Below, one piece after another: positions 4,032-50,284 of a stretch of 64,000 nt of DNA. The stretch comes from Candidatus Hydrogenedens sp. Its GTDB lineage: Bacteria > Hydrogenedentota > Hydrogenedentia > Hydrogenedentales > Hydrogenedentaceae. The translations under genes were made by a program, and so were the position numbers. Numbering within the stretch: the stretch's first letter is position 1; every line of letters begins with the position of its first letter. The notes below the pieces were generated by a model. That model was not told where the DNA came from. It was given only the letters and a program-made list of their open reading frames with translations, and ran no database searches. The stretch spans positions 160,001 through 224,000 of the forward strand of contig JBMFRC010000003.1 of the NCBI GenBank assembly GCA_049968235.1. The letters are read 5' to 3'.

Positions 4032-4682
4032 ATGTCCTTAAATATAGAACTGTATAAAAAACGAATTCCTTTCTATCCCATAGACTGGGAAGAATGGCAA
4101 ACGGAGATTTCACAATATATATCCCTGCTTAAAGAATGGAACCCCTTATTAAATCTTGTATCCAAAAATGATCTCGAAAAAAATTGTATTTCTCATATCG
4201 AAGATAGTTTAAGTCTTATACCTTATATTTATAACAAGATGAACAATTATAAGGAAAACCTCTGGTTAGACATAGGCACAGGGGGCGGGTTCCCTGCTAT
4301 TCCTATTCTGTTAACAAAGAAAGATTTCCCGACACTCCTTATAGAAAGAAAATCCAAAAAAGTTGGCTTCCTACAGATGCTCATTTCCCGATTCAAACTA
4401 AAAAATACAAAGGTAGTCTGCGATATTTTTCCTGAATGTTTAGACCATATCAATATCCAGATAGAAAATATAGGTGTGATTACATCACGAGGTATTGAAA
4501 AACCTGAAAAAATGGCTCTGTTTCTGAAGCAATGGCTTCCCCAAAAAACCTGGTTACTATGTCAAACACCCCATCTGGAACAAATATTCGACTCTGAAAT
4601 CTTCCAAAAAGAGATTATTCAAGATGAATTTACAACAATAAATATGCGAAGAGGAAAACTTGTAATAATTCATAGGAAATAA
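4032..4682 (+). CDS. rsmG: 16S rRNA (guanine527-N7)-methyltransferase RsmG (GidB)
   Basis: Motifs 'LLKEWNPLLNLVS', 'HIEDSL' and the SAM-binding 'LDIGTGGGFPAIPILL' match RsmG. About 216 aa, which is typical. Confidence 0.8.
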   Translation: MSLNIELYKKRIPFYPIDWEEWQTEISQYISLLKEWNPLLNLVSKNDLEKNCISHIEDSLSLIPYIYNKMNNYKENLWLDIGTGGGFPAIPILLTKKDFPTLLIERKSKKVGFLQMLISRFKLKNTKVVCDIFPECLDHINIQIENIGVITSRGIEKPEKMALFLKQWLPQKTWLLCQTPHLEQIFDSEIFQKEIIQDEFTTINMRRGKLVIIHRK

Positions 4683-10734: not shown

Positions 10735-10760
10735 CTTTTCTTCTCCTATTATAAACTAAG

Positions 10761-10769
10761 TTATCCACA
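10761..10769. promoter_or_regulatory. Perfect DnaA box (TTATCCACA) downstream of dnaN. A one-mismatch box TTTTCCACA lies at 10915-10923.
   Basis: Exact 9-mer consensus in the AT-rich intergenic region 10735-10927. Confidence 0.5.
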
Positions 10770-10927
10770 ACTTTTTCACAGTCTATGTTAATAAAGTAAG
10801 TAAAACTTATATACTCTTTACAGTATGGATATATAAAGGTTTATAAATAAGAGACTTAAATAATAAAGTGTTAAATATAAGAAACAATACAGGAAAAATA
10901 ATTTTATTCACATGTTTTCCACAAATA

Positions 10928-12034
10928 CTATAATTTCACGGGCATTATAATATTTATATATCTCTCATCTTCCTCTGCCTCTGGAGTTAATGGCTTTATA
11001 ACACAGGGACTGCTTCCGTCTTTTACAGACATTACCAATCTATCTGTTGTTATATGGTCAACAACATCTACCAAATACTCAATATTAAATCCTGTCTTAA
11101 CTTCATCTCCATCGTATTCTACTTCTAACATATCAGAAAATTCACCTACTTCTGGATTTTGAACTTCTATATCTATACGCCCCTTTTGAACACGCACCTT
11201 TACGGACATTGTTTTCATTGCTTCTGCTCTCTTTAAAACAGATTTCCAATCTTCTGTTTTTATTATTATATGTTTACTATAATCCTTAGGTATAACAACT
11301 TCATAATTTGGAAACGTTCCCTCTATCAAACTACTTGTCAATCTCATTTTATTAAATACAAAAGATACCCTTGTCTCACCCACAAAAATCTTTATATCAC
11401 CTGTTCCATCCATTTGATTCATCAGTTCTTTTATTGTCCTCTCCGGTATTGTTATACGAACATTTCTCTTAACAGGAACACATTCCTTTTCTCTCCTGAG
11501 ACTCATTCTTTTTCCATCTGTCGCTACCACAGTAAGATTGCCCTCATTTATTTCAAATAGAACACCTGTTAATGCATACCTTGCTTCTTCTGTGCATACC
11601 GCAAATGCCACCTTACGGAACATATCTATCAACAATGATTCCGAAATAATTATTGGTTCTACATCATCTACAAACATTACAGGCGGAAATTCTTCCGGAG
11701 TCATCGATATATACTTTACTTCCGTCCTACCACTTTTAACTATTACTTGATTTTCTCCTGAGGACCTTATAATCACATCACCCTTAGGTAAATTTGAAAG
11801 TAAATTTGAAAACAAATGAGCCCTTAATGTAATTCTTCCTTCTTCTTCTATCTCACATTCCTCCAACTCCTGCTCAATGGTCATTCGAAGGTCTGTACTT
11901 GTTAATTTTAATAAACCATTTTCCGCAGTTATTAAAATAGAAGATAAAATAGGTAAAGATGATTTTGCAGGAACTGCATTTCTTACTTTTGATAATGCTT
12001 CATTTAATTTTTCCTGACTTACTGTAATTTTCAT
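10928..12034 (-). CDS. dnaN: DNA polymerase III beta subunit (sliding clamp)
   Basis: N-terminus 'MKITVSQEKLNEALSKVRNAVPAKSSLPILSSILI' and the ~368-aa three-domain clamp organisation. Confidence 0.9.
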   Translation of the reverse strand: MKITVSQEKLNEALSKVRNAVPAKSSLPILSSILITAENGLLKLTSTDLRMTIEQELEECEIEEEGRITLRAHLFSNLLSNLPKGDVIIRSSGENQVIVKSGRTEVKYISMTPEEFPPVMFVDDVEPIIISESLLIDMFRKVAFAVCTEEARYALTGVLFEINEGNLTVVATDGKRMSLRREKECVPVKRNVRITIPERTIKELMNQMDGTGDIKIFVGETRVSFVFNKMRLTSSLIEGTFPNYEVVIPKDYSKHIIIKTEDWKSVLKRAEAMKTMSVKVRVQKGRIDIEVQNPEVGEFSDMLEVEYDGDEVKTGFNIEYLVDVVDHITTDRLVMSVKDGSSPCVIKPLTPEAEEDERYINIIMPVKL

Positions 12035-12309
12035 GTTTTTCCTCCGAATGTTGCTTTCTTCTTCTTTCTTCTTAATATATTTAAAAATATTGTAGTAGTA
12101 ATAGTAGTATATGTTTATTTGTGGATAACTATAAAAGATTATCCTTTTTTGATGTTCAAAAGCAACTTTTTATTGTTAATATGTTCTTTATTTTATTGTA
12201 GAAAAGTTTGTCTTTTCCACAATAAAAAATTGATTTAATTTTTTAAGTTAATATTTTGTTAATAAAAATAAATAAATTCACAAATAAATAACAACTTTTA
12301 CATAAAAAA
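12035..12309. promoter_or_regulatory. AT-rich intergenic region with a DnaA-box cluster; candidate oriC/DNA-unwinding element upstream of dnaN
   Basis: Perfect box TGTGGATAA (12120-12128, reverse), TTATCCTTT (12139-12147) and TTTTCCACA (12213-12221). Very high AT content with A/T tracts. Confidence 0.45.
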
Positions 12310-14286
12310 CTATAACCTTACAACCCTTAAAAATTCTTCAGGTGTAACAATCCCTTCTTTAATCTTTTCTCTGCAATGGTCTGCCATTGTTTTCAATTTT
12401 GCTGTTTGTGCAATAACTTCAGGTGTAGCACCTTCTGCAATTAACTTTCTGATCTGCGGTGTGATTTCTAATAACTCAAAAATTCCTGTTCTTCCTTTGT
12501 ATCCAGTATGATAGCAATTATTACATCCCTTACCGCGGAATAACGTCTTCGTGGATAGTGGTAAACCCACTTCTTTGAGTATAGATGTTCCTGGCTTATA
12601 AGCGACCTTACATTCATCACATATTTTTCTAACAAGTCTCTGTGCAATAACTGCGGTTAAGGCGCTTGAAATGAGATAAGAGGGTATTCCCATGTTGCGT
12701 AGTGTATTTATAGCATCAGGCGCATCGTTTGTGTGTAGTGTACTAAATACAAGATGTCCTGTCATTGCTGCCCTGATTGCTATATGAGCTGTCTCCGTGT
12801 CACGTATTTCTCCTACAAGAATAACATCCACATCCTGCCTGAGAGCTGCCCGCAATGTGTTTGCAAAAGTAACATTAATATCCGGATCAATCTGAACCTG
12901 ATTAATACCCGACAGCTGATATTCAACAGGGTCTTCGAGAGTAACGATACTCTCTGTCATAACATTTTTCTGATTCAGGGCAGCGTATAAAGTAGTTGTT
13001 TTACCGCTCCCCGTAGGGCCAGTAACGAGAATCATTCCATAGGGCTGTGCAATAAGTTTAATAAAACGGTTTTGTTCTTTCTCGGATATTCCTAAATCTC
13101 CAATACCTGACATCACAGCAGATTGGTCTAATAATCGTAAAACAACACGCTCGCCTAAGAATGTTGGTAATGTTGCAACTCTTATATCTAACTCTCTTCC
13201 TTCGACTTCGAGGTTCATGTGTCCATCCTGCGGATGCCGGGTTTCTGTTATGTCAAGGTCAGAAAGAATTTTCACACGGGAGACAACTGCATTTTGCATA
13301 GAAGGGGGGATGCTCATAACATCATGTAATATACCATCAATACGGTAACGTACGCGCATCTCAGGTTCCTGTGGGTCAAGATGAATGTCTGTAGCACCTG
13401 CTTTTACTGCACCTTCGAGAATCGTTTTTACTGTATTGATAGCTGATGTGCCGGACGCTTCTTTCGCTATTTGTTCAAACCTTTTATCTACTTCATTACT
13501 TTTAGCCTCAGTTTTCTTCATACTCGGCTCCGCATCCATAATTTCACCCTTTCTCTTTTGCTTGTCTATCTTCTCAACTTTTTTTACTTCTTTTACCACA
13601 GGTTTTATCTCTTCATTTGTTTCATTTATTACTGCTATCCCCCTATACCACTTTTCAATAACAGCAGACATATCATCAACCGCTGTCAGCATAGGATAGA
13701 TTCGTTTCCCTGTGAGTACAGATAAGTCCTTCGTCTTTTGAACATTCTGCGGTGTGGAAATGAGAACACTTACCTTATCCCCCTCGATATATACAGGAAG
13801 TACCTGATAACGACGGGCTAAAGCCTCAGAGATTGCATTCAGAGCATTCGGGTCCGGTTTCACAGTTTTAATATCTACATATTCAAGATTGTGCTGTTTG
13901 GCAAGAGTTTTACATATGTCCTCCCTTGTAACATAGCCAAGTTCGAGAAGAATATTTCCCAATAGACGGTTGGTTCTCCTCTGGACTCGGAGTGCTTCTT
14001 CCAATTGTCCTTTTGTGATTACACCATCATCAAGAAGAGCCATCCCCAGAGATTTGTGTTTTTCTTGAGTATCCCGCGAGTGCCATTCATAACGAAGGAC
14101 ATCTTCAATAACGGAAAAGGTAACTTTACCCATCTGGATGAGTTGCTTGTGCCAGGGAACACCGCTAATTTTTTCCCGTTCACGAACCCTGTCAAGTTCC
14201 TCTTGAGTAATATACTCACCTTTTACAAGACCTTCTGCTATCTTACTATCATTGGTTCTTTCATCAGACATATTTCCTGCTCCCAC
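12310..14286 (-). CDS. GspE/PilB-family secretion ATPase (type II secretion / type IV pilus assembly) with tandem N-terminal GSPII domains and C-terminal CxxC zinc finger
   Basis: Walker A 'GPTGSGKTTTLYAAL'. Asp-box and His-box regions present. Two N-terminal T2SE_Nter-like segments. C-terminal 'CDECK...CNNC'. Confidence 0.85.
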   Translation of the reverse strand: MGAGNMSDERTNDSKIAEGLVKGEYITQEELDRVREREKISGVPWHKQLIQMGKVTFSVIEDVLRYEWHSRDTQEKHKSLGMALLDDGVITKGQLEEALRVQRRTNRLLGNILLELGYVTREDICKTLAKQHNLEYVDIKTVKPDPNALNAISEALARRYQVLPVYIEGDKVSVLISTPQNVQKTKDLSVLTGKRIYPMLTAVDDMSAVIEKWYRGIAVINETNEEIKPVVKEVKKVEKIDKQKRKGEIMDAEPSMKKTEAKSNEVDKRFEQIAKEASGTSAINTVKTILEGAVKAGATDIHLDPQEPEMRVRYRIDGILHDVMSIPPSMQNAVVSRVKILSDLDITETRHPQDGHMNLEVEGRELDIRVATLPTFLGERVVLRLLDQSAVMSGIGDLGISEKEQNRFIKLIAQPYGMILVTGPTGSGKTTTLYAALNQKNVMTESIVTLEDPVEYQLSGINQVQIDPDINVTFANTLRAALRQDVDVILVGEIRDTETAHIAIRAAMTGHLVFSTLHTNDAPDAINTLRNMGIPSYLISSALTAVIAQRLVRKICDECKVAYKPGTSILKEVGLPLSTKTLFRGKGCNNCYHTGYKGRTGIFELLEITPQIRKLIAEGATPEVIAQTAKLKTMADHCREKIKEGIVTPEEFLRVVRL

Positions 14287-14454: not shown

Positions 14455-16269
14455 ATGAAGATACTCGGAATTTCTGCATTTTATCATGATAGTGCCTCCG
14501 CACTACTAATTGATGGTGAAATAATCTCTGCGGCACAGGAGGAACGGTTTACAAGAAAGAAGCATGACCCTCGTTTCCCTAAAAACGCAATTGAGTATTG
14601 TTTAAGAGAAGGAAATATAGAAATATCTGATGTTGACTGTATTGCCTTTTATGATAAACCTTTTTTGAAATTTGAACGACTGTTGATGACCTATCTTGGA
14701 ACTGCTCCTGCAGGACTATCTTCCTTCTTTGTTCAGATGCCTTCATGGCTTTCAGAAAAACTAAACATGCGGGGAACTATTCGGAAGGAATTGAACTATC
14801 AAGGAGAAATACTATTCTCTACACATCACTTATCCCACGCCGCATCTGCATTTTATCCAAGCCCCTTTGAAGAAAGTGCTATTATTACTTTAGACGGTGT
14901 TGGAGAATGGGCGACATCTGCTTATGGTGTCGGTCAGGGGAATAAAATAAAGTTATTAAAGGAGATTCGTTTTCCACATTCCTTAGGTCTGCTTTATTCT
15001 GCTTTTACCTATTTCACAGGTTTTAAGGTGAATAGCGGTGAATATAAACTCATGGGACTGGCTCCCTATGGAGAGCCGAAGTATGTGGATGTGATAAAGA
15101 AAGAACTTGTGGATATACATGAAGATGGTTCTTTCCGCCTTAATTTGAAATATTTCGATTATTGTGCGGGTCTGAAAATGACCAACAATCGGTTTGCCAA
15201 ACTTTTTGGTGGTCCCCCGCGAAAACCGGAATCGAAGATTACGCAAAGGGAAATGGATTTAGCCAAATCCATACAAATTGTTACGGAAGAAATTGTCCTG
15301 AAAATTGCAAGGCATGTGCATAAAGAGACAGGTATGAAAAAATTAGCCATGTCCGGTGGTGTTACACTGAACTGCGTTGCCAACGGTAGATTATTGAGAG
15401 AAGGACCTTTTGACGAAATATGGATACAGCCCTGTGCCAGTGATGGAGGGAACGCCCTGGGTTGTGCCTTACTGGCATGGCATCAGGTATATGGTAAAGA
15501 GCGTATAGCTCATTCGCGACGACAAAAAGCCAGTTATTTAGGTCCATCGTTTTCTGATGAGGAGATTGAGAAGTTCCTGAGAGAAGAAAATATTCCGTAT
15601 GAAAAACTATCGGAACAAGAGATTGCGACACGCGTCGCACAACTGATAGCCGAAGAGAAAGTTGTTGGTTGGTTTCAGGGGAGAATGGAATTCGGACCGC
15701 GTGCACTGGGAGCACGGAGTATTTTAGGGGATGCACGTTCCCGTGAGATGCAATCTGTACTAAATCTCAAAATAAAGTTCCGTGAGTCGTTTCGTCCCTT
15801 TGCTCCTACGGTGTTGTGCGAATATGCAGATGAATACTTCGAACTTAATGGGGCAGAAAGCCCGTATATGTTATTGGTTGCAAATGTTCGAAAAGAACAC
15901 CTTCGCAAACTTACGGAGGATGAACAGAAAGCCACAGGTTTTGATAAATTAAAGGTGATACGCTCCGACATTCCCGCTGTTACGCATGTTGATAATTCTG
16001 CACGCATACAAACCATTCGTCGGGAAGACCATCCCCGATATTATGATATGATAAAAGCCTTTTATGAAAAGACAGGTTGTCCCGTTATTATCAATACTTC
16101 TTTTAATGTTCGAGGGGAACCGATTGTTTGCACACCGCAGGAGGCATATACCTGCTTTATGAGAACACATATGGATTACCTTTGTTTAGGTTCATTCCTT
16201 CTGGATAAAACAAAACAAAAAGCATGGAAAGATGAAGTGGACTGGAAAAAAGAATTTGAATTGGATTAA
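14455..16269 (+). CDS. Carbamoyltransferase (NodU/CmcH/TobZ family)
   Basis: N-terminal Kae1/YgjD-like motif 'KILGISAFYHDSASALLIDGEIISAAQEERFTRKKHD'. The ~600-aa length and C-terminal carbamoyltransferase domain fit the family. Confidence 0.85.
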   Translation: MKILGISAFYHDSASALLIDGEIISAAQEERFTRKKHDPRFPKNAIEYCLREGNIEISDVDCIAFYDKPFLKFERLLMTYLGTAPAGLSSFFVQMPSWLSEKLNMRGTIRKELNYQGEILFSTHHLSHAASAFYPSPFEESAIITLDGVGEWATSAYGVGQGNKIKLLKEIRFPHSLGLLYSAFTYFTGFKVNSGEYKLMGLAPYGEPKYVDVIKKELVDIHEDGSFRLNLKYFDYCAGLKMTNNRFAKLFGGPPRKPESKITQREMDLAKSIQIVTEEIVLKIARHVHKETGMKKLAMSGGVTLNCVANGRLLREGPFDEIWIQPCASDGGNALGCALLAWHQVYGKERIAHSRRQKASYLGPSFSDEEIEKFLREENIPYEKLSEQEIATRVAQLIAEEKVVGWFQGRMEFGPRALGARSILGDARSREMQSVLNLKIKFRESFRPFAPTVLCEYADEYFELNGAESPYMLLVANVRKEHLRKLTEDEQKATGFDKLKVIRSDIPAVTHVDNSARIQTIRREDHPRYYDMIKAFYEKTGCPVIINTSFNVRGEPIVCTPQEAYTCFMRTHMDYLCLGSFLLDKTKQKAWKDEVDWKKEFELD

Positions 16270-16274
16270 ATACT

Positions 16275-16688
16275 ATGGCTCTAAAGATGAATTATACGGA
16301 CAAGAAAGAACAGCGTAAATTCGGGTTGCTTGTGGGTGTCGTGTTCATCATAATCGGAACTATACGTTGGGCGATTCATGGCTTTATTGGGATACCTTAT
16401 GTATGGTGGGGTATTGGTGGAACTTTAATTCTTTTAGGTATCCTTTTCCCAAAGATCCTCCAACCCGTTTTCTTCCTCTGGATGAAATTAGCGGAAGCAT
16501 TAAATTGGGTAATGACACGGTTTTTCTTGTTTGTCGCTTTTTATCTGGTTATTACTCCCACAGGCATACTTTATCGGTTGTTCAAAGGAGACCCTTTGAA
16601 TCGTCAATGGCTTTCTAAAGATGTAACATATTGGGATGAGGTAGAAACACAGCCTGAAAATATAGATGAATTTCGCAGGCAATTTTAA
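16275..16688 (+). CDS. Small membrane protein resembling SxtJ (a partner commonly encoded after carbamoyltransferase genes)
   Basis: 137 aa, three predicted TM helices, and a position immediately 3' of the carbamoyltransferase. I recall the similarity to SxtJ-like proteins from memory and have not verified it. Confidence 0.4.
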   Translation: MALKMNYTDKKEQRKFGLLVGVVFIIIGTIRWAIHGFIGIPYVWWGIGGTLILLGILFPKILQPVFFLWMKLAEALNWVMTRFFLFVAFYLVITPTGILYRLFKGDPLNRQWLSKDVTYWDEVETQPENIDEFRRQF

Positions 16689-16724
16689 TTGAACATAAAA
16701 CTTAACAGGATAGGAGGTTATATT

Positions 16725-17903
16725 ATGGAACATGTTGTTATTACATCAGGTGTTCGTACCGCAATTGGTTCGTTTGGTGGAAGTCTCAAAGATTACCCTG
16801 CACCTGACCTTGCGGGTCTCGTTGTAAAAGAAGCCCTTCAACGGAGTAAAGTAGAACCCGATGCAGTCGGCGATGTCATTATCGGTCAGTGTATGCAACG
16901 GACGGATGAATTGCCGACAGGTAGGCTTGCTGCGTTAAAAGCAGGTTTACCTACACAGGTGCCCGGTATAACGATACAGAGGAACTGCGCCTCAGGAATG
17001 CAAGCCATTGTTTACTCCGCACAACAAATTATGCTCGGTGATATGGACATTGCGGTAGCAGGTGGTGTAGAGATTATGAGCCGTGTCCCCTATACTGTGG
17101 ATAAGGCACGCTGGGGCATACGCCTGCAACATGCCACACTTGCAGATGGTGTCTGGGATGGACTTACCGATTCATGGAGCGGTCTTATCATGGGGCTAAC
17201 CGCAGAAAATTTAGCAGAGAAATACAATATCACCCGCGAAGAACAGGATACAATCGCATTAAAGTCTCACAATTGTGCTGAGAAAGCCATCAAGGAAGGA
17301 AAGTTCAAAGAGGAAATTCTTCCTGTGGAGATAAAAGGTAAAAAAGGAAGTGTTACTATTTTCGAGCAGGATGAACATGTGCGTATGGGGTTAACAATGG
17401 AACAGTTAGCCTCTCTGAAACCTTCTTTTAAGAAAGAGGGTACCGTTACTGCTGGCAATGCCTCCGGTATTAACGACGCAGGATGTGCGGTCGTTTTAAT
17501 GAGTGAGAAGGAAGCCAATCGCAGAGGATTGGAACCGTTAGGTCGCCTTGTTTCGTATGCTGTAGCCGGGGTGGAACCTGAACTTATGGGATACGGTCCC
17601 GTACCCGCTACAAAAAAGGCGTTGGAAAAAGCAAAGATGAAATTAGATGATATTGAACTGATAGAACTAAACGAAGCCTTCGCATCACAATACCTCGCCT
17701 GTGAAAAATTGTTAGGGCTAAATCGCGATATTACCAATGTGAACGGTTCCGGCATTGCCTTAGGTCATCCCGTCGGTTGCACAGGTGCTCGAATTGTATT
17801 ATCCCTGCTTAATGAAATGAAACGAAGAAACCTCAAATACGGACTCGCTACACTCTGCGTTGGTGGTGGTATGGGGATGACCACAATCTGGGCACGGGAC
17901 TAA
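16725..17903 (+). CDS. Acetyl-CoA C-acetyltransferase (thiolase II)
   Basis: Motifs 'VITSGVRTAIGSFGGSL', 'NASGINDAGCAVVLMSE' and 'GHPVGCTGARIVLSLLNEM', ending 'CVGGGMGMTTIW'. GGAGG RBS before the ATG at 16725. Confidence 0.9.
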   Translation: MEHVVITSGVRTAIGSFGGSLKDYPAPDLAGLVVKEALQRSKVEPDAVGDVIIGQCMQRTDELPTGRLAALKAGLPTQVPGITIQRNCASGMQAIVYSAQQIMLGDMDIAVAGGVEIMSRVPYTVDKARWGIRLQHATLADGVWDGLTDSWSGLIMGLTAENLAEKYNITREEQDTIALKSHNCAEKAIKEGKFKEEILPVEIKGKKGSVTIFEQDEHVRMGLTMEQLASLKPSFKKEGTVTAGNASGINDAGCAVVLMSEKEANRRGLEPLGRLVSYAVAGVEPELMGYGPVPATKKALEKAKMKLDDIELIELNEAFASQYLACEKLLGLNRDITNVNGSGIALGHPVGCTGARIVLSLLNEMKRRNLKYGLATLCVGGGMGMTTIWARD

Positions 17904-42562: not shown

Positions 42563-42925
42563 GGCAGTAATCCTTTGTTCTTTGCTATAAACTAACATAC
42601 AGGGAACAAGCAGAACAAGTGAAAAGGATACAATGAAGGCTAAAAAGCAGATATAAAAAATTTCTATTAACAATTAATTGTTGACAAAAATATAAAATAA
42701 ACAAAATACTACCCCTATTCTTAAATAACAAGGACCTGCAGAACAAAAATGTTTTATATCTAACAATCTATAATTTTTTTATCACCTCGTAATTTATTAT
42801 ACCTCAATTCTCAAAATTTTGCTTGAAAATTTAACTTTTTCTGTAAAATAAATCCTTATATTCCATAGATATATACAAATAGACGAAAATTTTGTTACAA
42901 AAATTTAAATTTTTTAAAATTTTAT

Positions 42926-42954
42926 TTGACAAAACGGGTTAATTCGTGTTAAAT
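42926..42954 (+). promoter_or_regulatory. Candidate sigma70-type promoter for the M23 peptidase-bactofilin operon
   Basis: -35 TTGACA (42926-42931), 17-nt spacer, -10 TTAAAT (42949-42954), within a 370-bp AT-rich intergenic region. Confidence 0.35.
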
Positions 42955-43045
42955 TTGAATTTACCTTAAAATTGAAAATTGAATTAATAGATATATATAA
43001 ATTGAGGAAAGGGAATAAACCTTTTTCTATAAGGAGCCGAATCGC

Positions 43046-48866: not shown

Positions 48867-49090
48867 CCTCCTTTCAATATAAATTTATGAGTTGAAAAGG
48901 ATTTTTATTATATAACAAATAGGGGTAATATTTCAATAGATAATCTATTTTTATTTTTACTTCTATTTATGCTAAAATAATAAATCAATGTAGTGGAGAT
49001 GGGGTTCTCCTAAATCGCCGATGTGGCTGATGACTCCTACCTGAAATATCCTCAATGTAACTCTCTTTATTTTTATGAAAGGAATATGAC

Positions 49091-50284
49091 ATGGAACATC
49101 TATATCTATCTGCATCAATCTGGTTATTTCTCGCCCTAACCTCCGCTATCATTGCATATTACTTGAAGGTTTCTATTGCTTTGATAGAGATTTGTGTAGG
49201 TATTATCGCAGGATATATAGCGACCCATTTTCTACAGACCGATTTGCTTAATAATAATGAAGAATGGTTAAAATTTCTTGCAGGTAGTGGAGCCATTTTT
49301 CTTACTTTCCTTGCAGGTGCTGAATTAGAGCCTACTGTGATTAAAAATAAATGGAAGGAGGTTCTTCTTATCGGCTTGATTGGATTTTTTTCTCCATTTG
49401 TCGGTTGTTCATTGATTGCTCATTTTTTGTTAGGGTGGGACCCGAGAGCCAGTTTGCTATGTGGTGTAGCCCTATCAACTACTTCAATGGCTGTGGTTTA
49501 TGCGGTGATGATTGACACAGGATTAAATGTTACAGAATTTGGGAAGGGCATATTAGGTTCTTGTTTTATCAATGATATCGGGACCGTTCTCGCTTTAGGA
49601 ATCATCTTTGCACCGTTTACCTACAAGACCTTTATCTTTATTACTATAACAATTATTTATCTTGTTCTTTTCCCGTTTTTTACCAACCATCTGACGAAGG
49701 TATATGGGAATCGAACTGCTGCAATTCGAACCAAATGGATTTCATTCACACTGTTCGGATTAGGTGCATTAGCACTATGGTCGGGCAATGAAGCAGTCTT
49801 GCCTGCCTATATAGCGGGTATGGTCCTTGCAGAATTCAGTCAAAGAAATCCTATATGGTTACGAAGATTACGAACTTTGACCATCGGATTTCTTACCCCA
49901 TTTTATTTTTTAAGGGCAGGCACACTTGTATCCGTTCCTGCATTAATTTCTGCACCATTTCTTATCGTTGCCCTATTAGGGGCAAAAGTAGTTTCCAAGA
50001 TATTTGGACTATACCCTTTTATCATACAATTTCGGAAAGAAAAAAATGAACGATGGTATTACACCTTGATGATGTCCACAGGACTCACCTTCGGAACTAT
50101 CTCTGCTCTATTTGGATATTCTCATAATATTATCAATACAGAACAATATTCCTATATAGTAATTGCTGTTATTGCAAGTGCTGTAATTCCAACTATGTTT
50201 GCATCCTACCTCTTCACACCGAGACATCTTTTATCTCAGAAAATTCATGTCTCAAAATCTATACATGAATTATCTGAGGAATAG
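49091..50284 (+). CDS. Cation:proton antiporter (Na+/H+ exchanger, CPA-type) membrane protein
   Basis: About 11-12 TM helices with an N-terminal exchanger-family pattern ('LKVSIALIEICVGIIAGY'). No RCK domain. Confidence 0.65.
   Translation: MEHLYLSASIWLFLALTSAIIAYYLKVSIALIEICVGIIAGYIATHFLQTDLLNNNEEWLKFLAGSGAIFLTFLAGAELEPTVIKNKWKEVLLIGLIGFFSPFVGCSLIAHFLLGWDPRASLLCGVALSTTSMAVVYAVMIDTGLNVTEFGKGILGSCFINDIGTVLALGIIFAPFTYKTFIFITITIIYLVLFPFFTNHLTKVYGNRTAAIRTKWISFTLFGLGALALWSGNEAVLPAYIAGMVLAEFSQRNPIWLRRLRTLTIGFLTPFYFLRAGTLVSVPALISAPFLIVALLGAKVVSKIFGLYPFIIQFRKEKNERWYYTLMMSTGLTFGTISALFGYSHNIINTEQYSYIVIAVIASAVIPTMFASYLFTPRHLLSQKIHVSKSIHELSEE

What the first reader, a model, noticed from the sequence alone, without database searches (positions are those of the whole stretch)
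10735..12309. Candidate chromosomal replication origin: DnaA-box clusters on both sides of dnaN, with dnaA not adjacent
Perfect DnaA boxes occur at 10761-10769 (TTATCCACA) and 12120-12128 (TGTGGATAA). One- or two-mismatch boxes occur at 10915-10923, 12139-12147 and 12213-12221. All lie within two strongly AT-rich intergenic regions flanking dnaN. The 275-bp region upstream of dnaN also has A/T tracts suitable for a DNA-unwinding element. The gene upstream is a GspE-type ATPase rather than dnaA, so the usual dnaA-dnaN linkage is broken here.
Basis: partly seen in the sequence, partly recalled or inferred. Interest (0 to 1): 0.55.

Follow-up and report, generated by a model that had tools for sequence, protein, structure and literature searches.

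The report
Chromosome replication origin next to dnaN
The two AT-rich gaps around the sliding-clamp gene dnaN of this uncultured Candidatus Hydrogenedens bacterium very probably hold its chromosomal replication origin, built like the Bacillus subtilis unwinding module and sited as in cyanobacteria (next to dnaN, with dnaA elsewhere), so it is a solid but ordinary find.

Summary
Five boxes with one mismatch or fewer lie in 468 bp flanking dnaN, against two in 6.1 kb of other intergenic DNA (p = 3e-5).

The strongest evidence is new. Just upstream of dnaN lies a basal unwinding system (BUS): TTATCCACA, a weak second box, a 4-nt gap, then five DnaA-trios (3'-GAT GAT AAT GAT GAT-5'), then a 20-bp A/T run. 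The 12-nt spacer equals that of B. subtilis. It is the best BUS candidate in the window.

Boxes and BUS are conserved as footprints in all eight other lineages aligned (74-90% DnaN identity). A box cluster plus BUS pointing at dnaN also occurs in lineages at 63% and 40% identity.

With gene orientation removed, the GC-skew switch falls exactly in this gap (1 of 2000 permutations), and again in a distant relative.

No dnaA lies in the window or near dnaN in any relative. The downstream box cluster is confined to the closest relatives, so it is probably accessory.

Verdict: a dnaN-linked oriC, a new member of a known kind.

The parts
12120..12128 (-). BUS upstream DnaA box, a perfect TTATCCACA that points toward dnaN
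   Evidence: Exact match. Pairwise identity is 0.88 across 9 lineages, against 0.51 for the rest of the intergenic region.
12112..12119 (-). Weak second tandem box, (A)AATAAACA, which shares one base with the first box. The geometry matches B. subtilis box 7, AATCCACA.
   Evidence: Four mismatches, which is within the limit the published BUS rules allow for the less conserved box (PMC8287927).
12108..12111 (-). 4-nt gap between the boxes and the trios. It reads TATA here and is GC-rich (GTGC/GCGC) in L003, L005, L011 and L012.
12093..12107 (-). Five DnaA-trios. The minus strand reads CTA CTA TTA CTA CTA, so the plus strand reads 3'-GAT GAT AAT GAT GAT-5', the strand DnaA would bind as single-stranded DNA.
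   Evidence: (YTA)x5 occurs at only two places in the window on both strands. This is the top BUS candidate in the window.
12072..12091 (.). 20-bp run of pure A/T next to the trios; the probable start of the DNA-unwinding element
   Evidence: Sequence. Its 40-bp duplex stability is in the lowest 2.7% of the window but is not the extreme.
12054..12073 (-). Conserved polypurine (AAG/AAAG)n tract between the A/T run and the dnaN ribosome-binding site (GGAGGA, 12040-12045). Function unknown.
12138..12165 (-). Putative dnaN promoter: TTGCTT (12160-12165), 16 nt, GATAAT (12138-12143).
   Evidence: Pairwise identity 0.95 and 0.91. L014 has TTGCTT-N16-TATAAT. The block is unchanged in L009, where all the boxes changed. 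It falls below the threshold of the consensus scan, so this is an inference.
12174..12182 (-). Weak box U5, ATATTAACA; reads TTCAACA or TTCCACA in relatives
12197..12205 (-). Box U4, TTTTCTACA (two mismatches); reads TTATCAACA, TTTTCCACA or TTATTCACA in relatives
12213..12221 (+). Box U3, TTTTCCACA (one mismatch); faces U4
12257..12265 (-). Box U2, TTATTAACA (two mismatches); reads TTTTCCACA in L002, L003, L005 and L008
10928..12034 (-). dnaN (DNA polymerase III beta clamp), transcribed away from the unwinding site
   Evidence: Pfam PF00712, PF02767 and PF02768. 100% identical to an NCBI MAG protein named for Candidatus Hydrogenedens sp..
10904..10923 (+). Downstream tandem box pair D3 TTATTCACA and D4 TTTTCCACA, 11 bp start to start. 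D4 ends 4 bp from the dnaN stop codon (10928-10930).
   Evidence: Pairwise identity 0.82-0.88, against 0.38 background.
10761..10780 (+). Downstream tandem box pair D1 TTATCCACA (perfect) and D2 TTTTTCACA, 11 bp start to start
   Evidence: Pairwise identity 0.82-0.94. Kept in L003 and L005, where the downstream gene differs. Absent in L009 and L014-L018.
12310..14286 (-). MshEN + T2SSE (GspE/PilB-type) ATPase gene, occupying the place that dnaA holds in the classical arrangement
   Evidence: Its position next to the origin region and dnaN is kept down to 40% DnaN identity.
4032..4682 (+). gidB/rsmG, a gene classically found near origins, about 6 kb from dnaN
   Evidence: Pfam PF02527. Also within about 5 kb of dnaN in L018.

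Best explanation
The 275-bp region upstream of dnaN (12035-12309) is the core of the chromosomal origin (oriC) of this Candidatus Hydrogenedens genome.

Proposed mechanism:
1. DnaA binds an array of about seven boxes of type TT[A/T]TCCACA.
2. The perfect box at 12120-12128, with the weak tandem box beside it, directs an ATP-DnaA oligomer onto five DnaA-trios on the plus strand (12093-12107).
3. The duplex opens there and melting spreads into the adjacent A/T run toward dnaN. Helicase loads and forks leave in both directions.
4. dnaN is transcribed co-directionally with the leftward fork, probably from a conserved TTGCTT-N16-GATAAT promoter just upstream of the unwinding module. DnaA occupancy and dnaN transcription would then be coupled.
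5. The four boxes just beyond the 3' end of dnaN (two tandem pairs) are a lineage-specific accessory DnaA-binding cluster. They may reinforce or regulate the orisome but are not part of the conserved core.

Evolutionary reading: the origin stayed with dnaN when dnaA moved away early in Hydrogenedentota, and a GspE/PilB-type ATPase gene now sits where dnaA used to be.

Shown here: the sequence elements, their enrichment, their conservation, the local skew switch and the absence of dnaA. Inferred: DnaA binding, unwinding, promoter activity and any looping.
For: 1. Box enrichment. 5 of the 7 intergenic boxes (one mismatch or fewer) in the 64-kb window lie in the two dnaN-flanking regions (p = 3e-5); simulations never reach 3.

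2. BUS geometry. The window reads TTATCCACA|AATAAACA|TATA|CTACTATTACTACTA. B. subtilis reads TTATCCACA|AATCCACA|GGCC|CTACTATTACTTCTACTA, also with a 12-nt spacer (Table S2 of PMC8287927). It is the top-scoring candidate of 21 in the window; the next has three trios and a two-mismatch box. (YTA)x5 occurs at only two places in 128 kb of strand.

3. Phylogenetic footprints in 9 lineages. Box columns score 0.74-0.94 pairwise identity, against 0.38-0.51 for the remainder. Box, 8 nt, 4-nt gap and CTA trios are kept in register.

4. Deep conservation.
- L014 (63% DnaN identity), L015/L016 (40%, 58% GC) and L018 (40%) all have a T2SSE ATPase gene, a long intergenic region with boxes plus a BUS pointing at dnaN, then dnaN.
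- L017 (40%) has different upstream genes but still has boxes and a BUS upstream of dnaN.
- 6 of the 8 boxes in 21 kb of L015, and 7 of the 13 in 13 kb of L018, lie in that one region.

5. GC skew with gene orientation regressed out. The best minus-to-plus breakpoint is exactly between dnaN and the ATPase gene (RSS 469 to 315; 1 of 2000 permutations). In L015 it is at the same place (RSS 257 to 68). In L014 and L018 it is a near-tie with the neighbouring breakpoint.

6. Indicator genes: dnaN is adjacent and gidB is about 6 kb away.

7. The Omnitrophota outgroup L019 shows the presumed ancestral layout, dnaA-[boxes, BUS pointing to dnaN]-dnaN.
Against: - Only 64 kb is visible. The replicon-wide skew minimum and the coverage peak are unknown.
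- GC3 skew alone prefers a breakpoint at 23-24 kb, slightly over 11.5-13 kb.
- The dnaA locus of this phylum could not be retrieved, so a second and possibly stronger box cluster beside dnaA is not excluded.
- The gap between box and trios is TATA here, not GC-rich.
- The published BUS search rules are permissive: 85% of predicted origins pass.
- The A/T run beside the trios is not the least stable DNA in the window.
- L017 shows no skew signal.
- In L009 all the boxes read TTAACA instead of TCCACA.
- No experiment of any kind supports binding or firing.
Confidence: 0.82

Rival explanations
1. True bipartite origin. Both clusters belong to one orisome. DnaA bound at the two tandem pairs 3' of dnaN bridges to the upstream cluster and loops out the 1.1-kb dnaN gene, as oriC1 and oriC2 loop out dnaA in Helicobacter pylori. 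Both clusters would be needed for efficient firing.
For: - The four downstream boxes are the best-conserved columns of their intergenic region (0.82-0.94 against 0.38).
- They stay with dnaN even where the downstream gene differs (L003, L005).
- They form co-oriented tandem pairs with a 2-bp gap, an arrangement allowed for BUS box pairs.
- Their orientation converges on dnaN from the side opposite the BUS boxes.
Against: - The cluster is absent from L009 (78% DnaN identity) and from all more distant lineages that keep the upstream cluster and BUS (L014-L018), so it is dispensable for the conserved core.
- No conserved trios lie next to it.
- The distance between the two pairs varies among relatives (143-162 bp).
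- Looping is untested.
Confidence: 0.3
2. Not an origin. The boxes are DnaA-dependent transcriptional control sites for dnaN and/or DnaA-titrating clusters (like datA or the B. subtilis DnaA-box clusters), and oriC lies elsewhere, for instance beside dnaA.
For: - A conserved promoter-like element (TTGCTT-N16-GATAAT) sits immediately upstream of the perfect box. DnaA there could repress dnaN.
- DnaA-box clusters outside oriC are known in model bacteria (general knowledge).
- The dnaA locus was not examined.
Against: - Control or titration sites need no trios, yet a box-spacer-trio module followed by an A/T run (shown in the window) is conserved in register from 90% down to 40% DnaN identity.
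- The orientation-corrected skew switch falls in this very region in the window and in L015.
- The layout equals the dnaA-dnaN origin of the outgroup L019 with dnaA removed.
Confidence: 0.1
3. Chance. AT-rich intergenic DNA happens to contain sequences that resemble boxes.
For: - The box consensus is AT-rich, as are the intergenic regions.
- The window as a whole has only a modest excess of boxes (35 against 23 expected).
Against: - Composition-matched simulations never give 3 or more boxes, against 5 observed.
- Other AT-rich intergenic regions hold 1 box in 1590 bp.
- The boxes are positionally conserved across lineages whose intergenic background has diverged.
Confidence: 0.01

Closest known systems
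Bacillus subtilis oriC incC region and its basal unwinding system (DnaA boxes 6 and 7, DnaA-trios, AT-rich 27-mer between dnaA and dnaN)
   Same: - Same module and geometry: a perfect TTATCCACA, an overlapping weak tandem box, a 4-nt gap, and trios beginning CTACTATTACT.
- Same 12-nt spacer.
- An A/T-rich stretch follows, and the module lies directly upstream of dnaN and points toward it. The B. subtilis orientation is from my own knowledge; the same layout was verified here in the Omnitrophota locus L019.
   Different: - The upstream neighbour is a GspE/PilB-type ATPase gene, not dnaA.
- The gap is TATA, not GGCC.
- The second box cluster lies downstream of dnaN rather than upstream of dnaA.
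- The Firmicute helpers DnaD and DnaB were not looked for.
Cyanobacterial dnaN-linked oriC (Synechococcus elongatus PCC 7942, Anabaena PCC 7120, Cyanothece 51142)
   Same: - The origin is adjacent to dnaN with dnaA elsewhere on the chromosome.
- TTTTCCACA is a frequent box variant.
- A BUS is present in S. elongatus.
(PMC4009838; PMC4674748; Table S2.)
   Different: - A different phylum, with a different conserved neighbour (T2SSE ATPase).
- Here an additional box cluster lies 3' of dnaN.
- No experimental confirmation exists for Hydrogenedentota.
Helicobacter pylori bipartite oriC1-dnaA-oriC2
   Same: - Two DnaA-box clusters are separated by a replication gene of about 1-1.4 kb.
- The unwinding module (boxes, gap, trios, AT-rich stretch) is in only one of the two clusters (PMC8235120).
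   Different: - The embedded gene is dnaN, not dnaA.
- The second cluster is not conserved beyond the closest relatives.
- Looping and any requirement for the second cluster are untested.
Non-origin DnaA-box clusters (E. coli datA, B. subtilis DnaA-box clusters)
   Same: Clusters of several DnaA boxes in intergenic DNA. This may describe the downstream cluster at 10761-10923.
   Different: The upstream cluster has trios, an A/T run and a skew switch, none of which such clusters need. This comparison rests on general knowledge and was not tested here.

Membership tests
DnaA-dependent bacterial chromosomal origin (oriC) | A cluster of DnaA boxes significantly above the background of comparable DNA | tested here: met
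   5 boxes in 468 bp against 2 in 6109 bp of other intergenic DNA, p = 3e-5. Simulations never reach 3.
DnaA-dependent bacterial chromosomal origin (oriC) | Location at the minus-to-plus switch of strand compositional asymmetry | tested here: inconclusive
   Locally met. The orientation-corrected breakpoint lies between dnaN and the ATPase gene (1 of 2000 permutations), and at the same place in L015. GC3 alone slightly prefers 23-24 kb, and the whole replicon is not available.
DnaA-dependent bacterial chromosomal origin (oriC) | Adjacent AT-rich DNA-unwinding element | tested here: met
   A 20-bp pure A/T run at 12072-12091 abuts the trios, and the intergenic region is 19% GC. The criterion discriminates weakly, because other intergenic regions are just as unstable.
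DnaA-dependent bacterial chromosomal origin (oriC) | Origin activity: DnaA binding, unwinding, autonomous replication, or a marker-frequency peak | not testable with these tools
   No coverage data, no closed genome and no biochemistry.
Basal unwinding system (BUS; PMC8287927) | A DnaA box with two mismatches or fewer, optionally followed by a weaker tandem box with four or fewer | tested here: met
   Perfect TTATCCACA plus (A)AATAAACA with four mismatches.
Basal unwinding system (BUS; PMC8287927) | A spacer of 16 bp or less between the box and the first trio, with the trios on the strand complementary to 5'-TTATCCACA-3' | tested here: met
   The spacer is 12 nt, as in B. subtilis. The orientation was checked against Table S2.
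Basal unwinding system (BUS; PMC8287927) | At least three consecutive trios 3'-NAN-5', preferably 3'-[G/A]AT-5' | tested here: met
   Five consecutive GAT/AAT trios. Two to six are kept in register in relatives.
dnaN-linked oriC without adjacent dnaA (cyanobacterial type) | The origin abuts dnaN and dnaA is not the neighbour | tested here: met
   No DnaA domain or tblastn hit in the 64-kb window or in loci L001-L018. Positive control: the E. coli DnaA query hits the L019 dnaA at 8e-101.
Bipartite oriC (H. pylori / B. subtilis type) | Two box clusters separated by a gene, both conserved | tested here: inconclusive
   Two clusters flank dnaN and both are conserved in 8 close lineages. The downstream cluster is missing in L009 and L014-L018.
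Bipartite oriC (H. pylori / B. subtilis type) | The two clusters interact (looping) and both contribute to initiation | not testable with these tools
   Needs electron microscopy, 3C or mutagenesis.

The most novel reading that the evidence does not exclude
In the Candidatus Hydrogenedens clade the clamp gene dnaN, rather than dnaA, is embedded inside a bipartite orisome. DnaA on two tandem box pairs just past the dnaN stop codon would bridge to the BUS-bearing cluster at the dnaN promoter and loop out the gene. Origin firing and clamp expression would then be mechanically coupled. A related oddity: one lineage (L009) has converted every box from TCCACA to TTAACA, which hints at a co-evolved change in DnaA specificity.
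Probability: 0.25. Interest if true: 0.5.

Novelty: new member of a known kind. Interest (0 to 1): 0.3.

Why it matters
- It gives the first concrete, testable origin assignment for Hydrogenedentota, a phylum known to me only from metagenome-assembled genomes. A full-text search found no paper on a Hydrogenedentes oriC.
- The coordinates are precise enough to design DnaA-binding or strand-separation assays, to orient MAG assemblies, and to compute growth-rate indices (peak-to-trough coverage) for these organisms in digesters and sediments.
- It extends the box-spacer-trio unwinding module, with B. subtilis-like geometry, to another deep lineage.
- It adds a second phylum, besides cyanobacteria, in which oriC stayed with dnaN after dnaA left.
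- None of this overturns current understanding.

Tried and rejected
1. The AT-rich divergent intergenic region at 42674-43045 is the raw cumulative-skew minimum of the window and a strand-switch point. I rejected it as an origin: it has no box with one mismatch or fewer and fits poorly once gene orientation is removed.

2. Six boxes inside coding sequences at 14970-17104 looked like a third cluster. They are not kept as boxes in distant relatives, and the one that persists is simply a Val-Asp-Lys/Asn codon string with free synonymous variation.

3. Locating the Hydrogenedentota dnaA failed.
- A protein search with the Omnitrophota DnaA from L019 returned only Omnitrophota-type hits.
- The window's own DnaN (P0001, NCBI MAG, 267-kb contig) is not retrievable through the look-up of encoding contigs.

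4. The consensus promoter scan found no more sites than shuffles do (5 against 9.7). The dnaN promoter proposal therefore rests on conservation, not on that scan.

5. Duplex-stability ranking does not single out the unwinding element.

6. A second BUS next to the downstream pair D1/D2 passes only the permissive NAN rule and is not conserved, so I rejected it.
Full report
**What is there**

dnaN occupies 10928-12034 on the minus strand, with all three beta-clamp domains. It is flanked by two intergenic regions:
- a 193-bp region on its 3' side (10735-10927, 22% GC);
- a 275-bp region on its 5' side (12035-12309, 19% GC).

The gene upstream is an MshEN + T2SSE (GspE/PilB-type) ATPase at 12310-14286. 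The gene downstream is a PIG-L deacetylase.

The closest public relatives identify the organism as Candidatus Hydrogenedens, phylum Hydrogenedentota.

**Checking the observation**

Four further boxes were missed:
- 10904 TTATTCACA;
- 10772 TTTTTCACA;
- 12197 TTTTCTACA;
- 12257 TTATTAACA.

The enrichment is real:
- The two regions hold 5 boxes (one mismatch or fewer) in 468 bp. All other intergenic regions hold 2 in 6109 bp (binomial p = 3.4e-5).
- Against only the AT-rich intergenic regions, p = 0.003.
- Composition-matched simulations give a mean of 0.12 and never 3 or more in 5000 runs.

**The unwinding module**

Read on the dnaN sense strand, the upstream region ends with:

TTATCCACA AATAAACA TATA CTA CTA TTA CTA CTA, then a 20-bp pure A/T run, a polypurine tract, GGAGGA and ATG.

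Table S2 of Pelliciari et al. 2021 (PMC8287927) writes the B. subtilis basal unwinding system (BUS) as AATAGGTGT / TTAGGTGT / CCGG / GATGATAATGAAGATGAT (3' to 5'). That corresponds to 5'-TTATCCACA AATCCACA GGCC CTACTATTACTTCTACTA-3', with a 12-nt spacer.

The window has the same order, strand relation and spacer length, and the first 11 trio bases are nearly identical.

A scan of both strands of the window used the published rules, tightened so that the first trio must be CTA or TTA. It ranks this site first (perfect box, five perfect trios). The runner-up has a two-mismatch box and three trios. (YTA)x5 occurs at only one other place in the window.

**Conservation in close relatives**

Thirteen loci at 74-90% DnaN identity were fetched, and eight distinct lineages among them were aligned with the window. 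The synteny ATPase-dnaN is kept in the eight loci checked for it. All loci whose upstream region was recovered keep box, 8 nt, 4-nt gap and CTA trios in register. The gap is GC-rich (GTGC/GCGC) in four of them.

In the alignments the boxes are footprints:
- Downstream boxes score 0.82-0.94 pairwise identity, against 0.38 for the rest of that region.
- Upstream boxes score 0.74-0.88, against 0.51.

The two most conserved upstream blocks are not boxes. They are AAAGTTGCTTTT (0.95) and GGATAATCTTTTATAG (0.91). Together they read TTGCTT-N16-GATAAT; the 63%-identity lineage L014 has TTGCTT-N16-TATAAT at the same place. I infer a dnaN promoter whose transcript starts at or just before the BUS box. 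The consensus scan does not call it.

**Conservation in distant relatives**

A protein search and contig look-ups gave distant lineages.
- L014 (63% DnaN identity), L015/L016 (40%, 58% GC) and L018 (40%) again show a T2SSE ATPase gene, a long intergenic region of 368-692 bp, then dnaN.
- 6 of the 8 boxes in 21 kb of L015, and 7 of the 13 in 13 kb of L018, lie in that one region.
- Each region ends in a BUS pointing at dnaN. Examples: ATATCCACA TTTCCACA AGTC CTA GTG TTA TTA, and TTATCCAGA TATCCACA GCTC TTA CTA TTA.
- L017 (40%) has different upstream genes but the same boxes and BUS.
- None of these lineages has boxes downstream of dnaN.
- The Omnitrophota outgroup L019 has the classical rnpA-dnaA-dnaN-dciA-gyrB order, with a box and trios in the dnaA-dnaN gap pointing at dnaN.

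The simplest history: the origin stayed with dnaN when dnaA left, early in Hydrogenedentota. The downstream cluster was added later, in the Hydrogenedens clade.

**GC skew**

Raw cumulative GC skew has two minima, at about 14-15 kb and about 42-43 kb. Both track gene orientation.

Regressing per-gene skew on orientation plus a side term gives these results:
- In the window, the best minus-to-plus breakpoint lies exactly between dnaN and the ATPase gene (RSS 469 to 315). Only 1 of 2000 gene-order permutations does as well.
- GC3 alone slightly prefers 23-24 kb.
- In L015 the same analysis puts the best breakpoint at the dnaN-upstream region (RSS 257 to 68).
- L014 and L018 give a near-tie with the adjacent breakpoint. 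L017 is flat.
- The 42.7-43.0 kb region has no boxes and fits poorly.

**dnaA**

No window ORF of 120 aa or more has a DnaA domain. Neither hits anything in the window or in L001-L018. The E. coli query hits the L019 dnaA at 8e-101, so the query is valid.

dnaA is therefore more than 10 kb away on one side and more than 50 kb away on the other. I could not find the phylum's dnaA locus, so a competing cluster beside dnaA remains formally possible.

**Interpretation**

The upstream region is a DnaA-dependent origin core of the B. subtilis BUS type, in the dnaN-linked configuration that is standard in cyanobacteria (PMC4009838, PMC4674748). I put this at about 0.8.

The downstream cluster is two co-oriented tandem pairs converging on dnaN. 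It is clearly under selection in the close relatives. It is absent in L009 and in all deeper lineages, so I treat it as accessory. A genuine looped bipartite origin like that of H. pylori (PMC8235120) is possible, at about 0.25-0.3.

A purely regulatory or titration role with oriC elsewhere is unlikely (about 0.1). The trios are conserved in register and the skew switch coincides with the region.

**Novelty and score**

No paper in the library addresses a Hydrogenedentes origin. Every component is known, however, so this is a new member of a known kind. Interest 0.3.

Noticed in passing
L009:5739-6000 and L009:7108-7206: In this lineage (78% DnaN identity, same synteny) every DnaA box upstream of dnaN reads TTAACA where relatives read TCCACA. 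8 of the 17 TTATTAACA-like sites (one mismatch or fewer) in the 13-kb locus lie in this 262-bp region. The downstream cluster is absent, and the GATAAT promoter-like block is unchanged. This could be a coordinated shift in box specificity or decay to low-affinity boxes.
   Followed up: partly
window 48986-49046 (+): Fluoride riboswitch (Rfam RF01734, 57 bits, E = 3e-13). It lies directly upstream of a gene of the Na+/H+ exchanger family (49091-50284) rather than a crcB or eriC gene.
   Followed up: no
window 14970-17104: Six DnaA-box matches (one mismatch or fewer) lie inside the carbamoyltransferase and thiolase coding sequences, as dense as at the origin. They are not kept as boxes in distant relatives. 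The persistent one is a Val-Asp-Lys/Asn codon string.
   Followed up: yes
window 10907-10934 (+): Near-consensus sigma-70-like promoter TTCACA-16-TATAAT (11 of 12), antisense to the 3' end of dnaN. Its -35 lies inside box D3 and its -10 overlaps the dnaN stop codon. It could be a DnaA-controlled antisense promoter, or a by-product of the box and of the Lys-Leu-stop codons.
   Followed up: no
window 12310-14286; L014, L015, L016, L018: A MshEN + T2SSE (GspE/PilB-type) ATPase gene is the conserved upstream neighbour of the origin and dnaN, from 90% down to 40% DnaN identity. It sits where dnaA sits in the Omnitrophota outgroup L019.
   Followed up: partly
window 42674-43045: A 372-bp intergenic region with 22% GC lies between divergently transcribed M42 and M23 peptidase genes, followed by about 21 kb of almost entirely plus-strand genes. 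It is the raw cumulative GC-skew minimum of the window, but it has no DnaA boxes and fits poorly once gene orientation is removed.
   Followed up: yes
window 25266-25283 (+): This is the only other (YTA)n run of five or more units in the window. It lies inside ORF 24929-26326 (-), which has no Pfam match.
   Followed up: no
window 12054-12073: A conserved polypurine tract, AAGAAGAAAGAAGAAGAAAG on the dnaN sense strand, lies between the A/T run and the dnaN ribosome-binding site. It is kept as AGAAG repeats in most close relatives. Its role is unknown; it could belong to the unwinding element, be a 5'-UTR element, or be a binding site.
   Followed up: no
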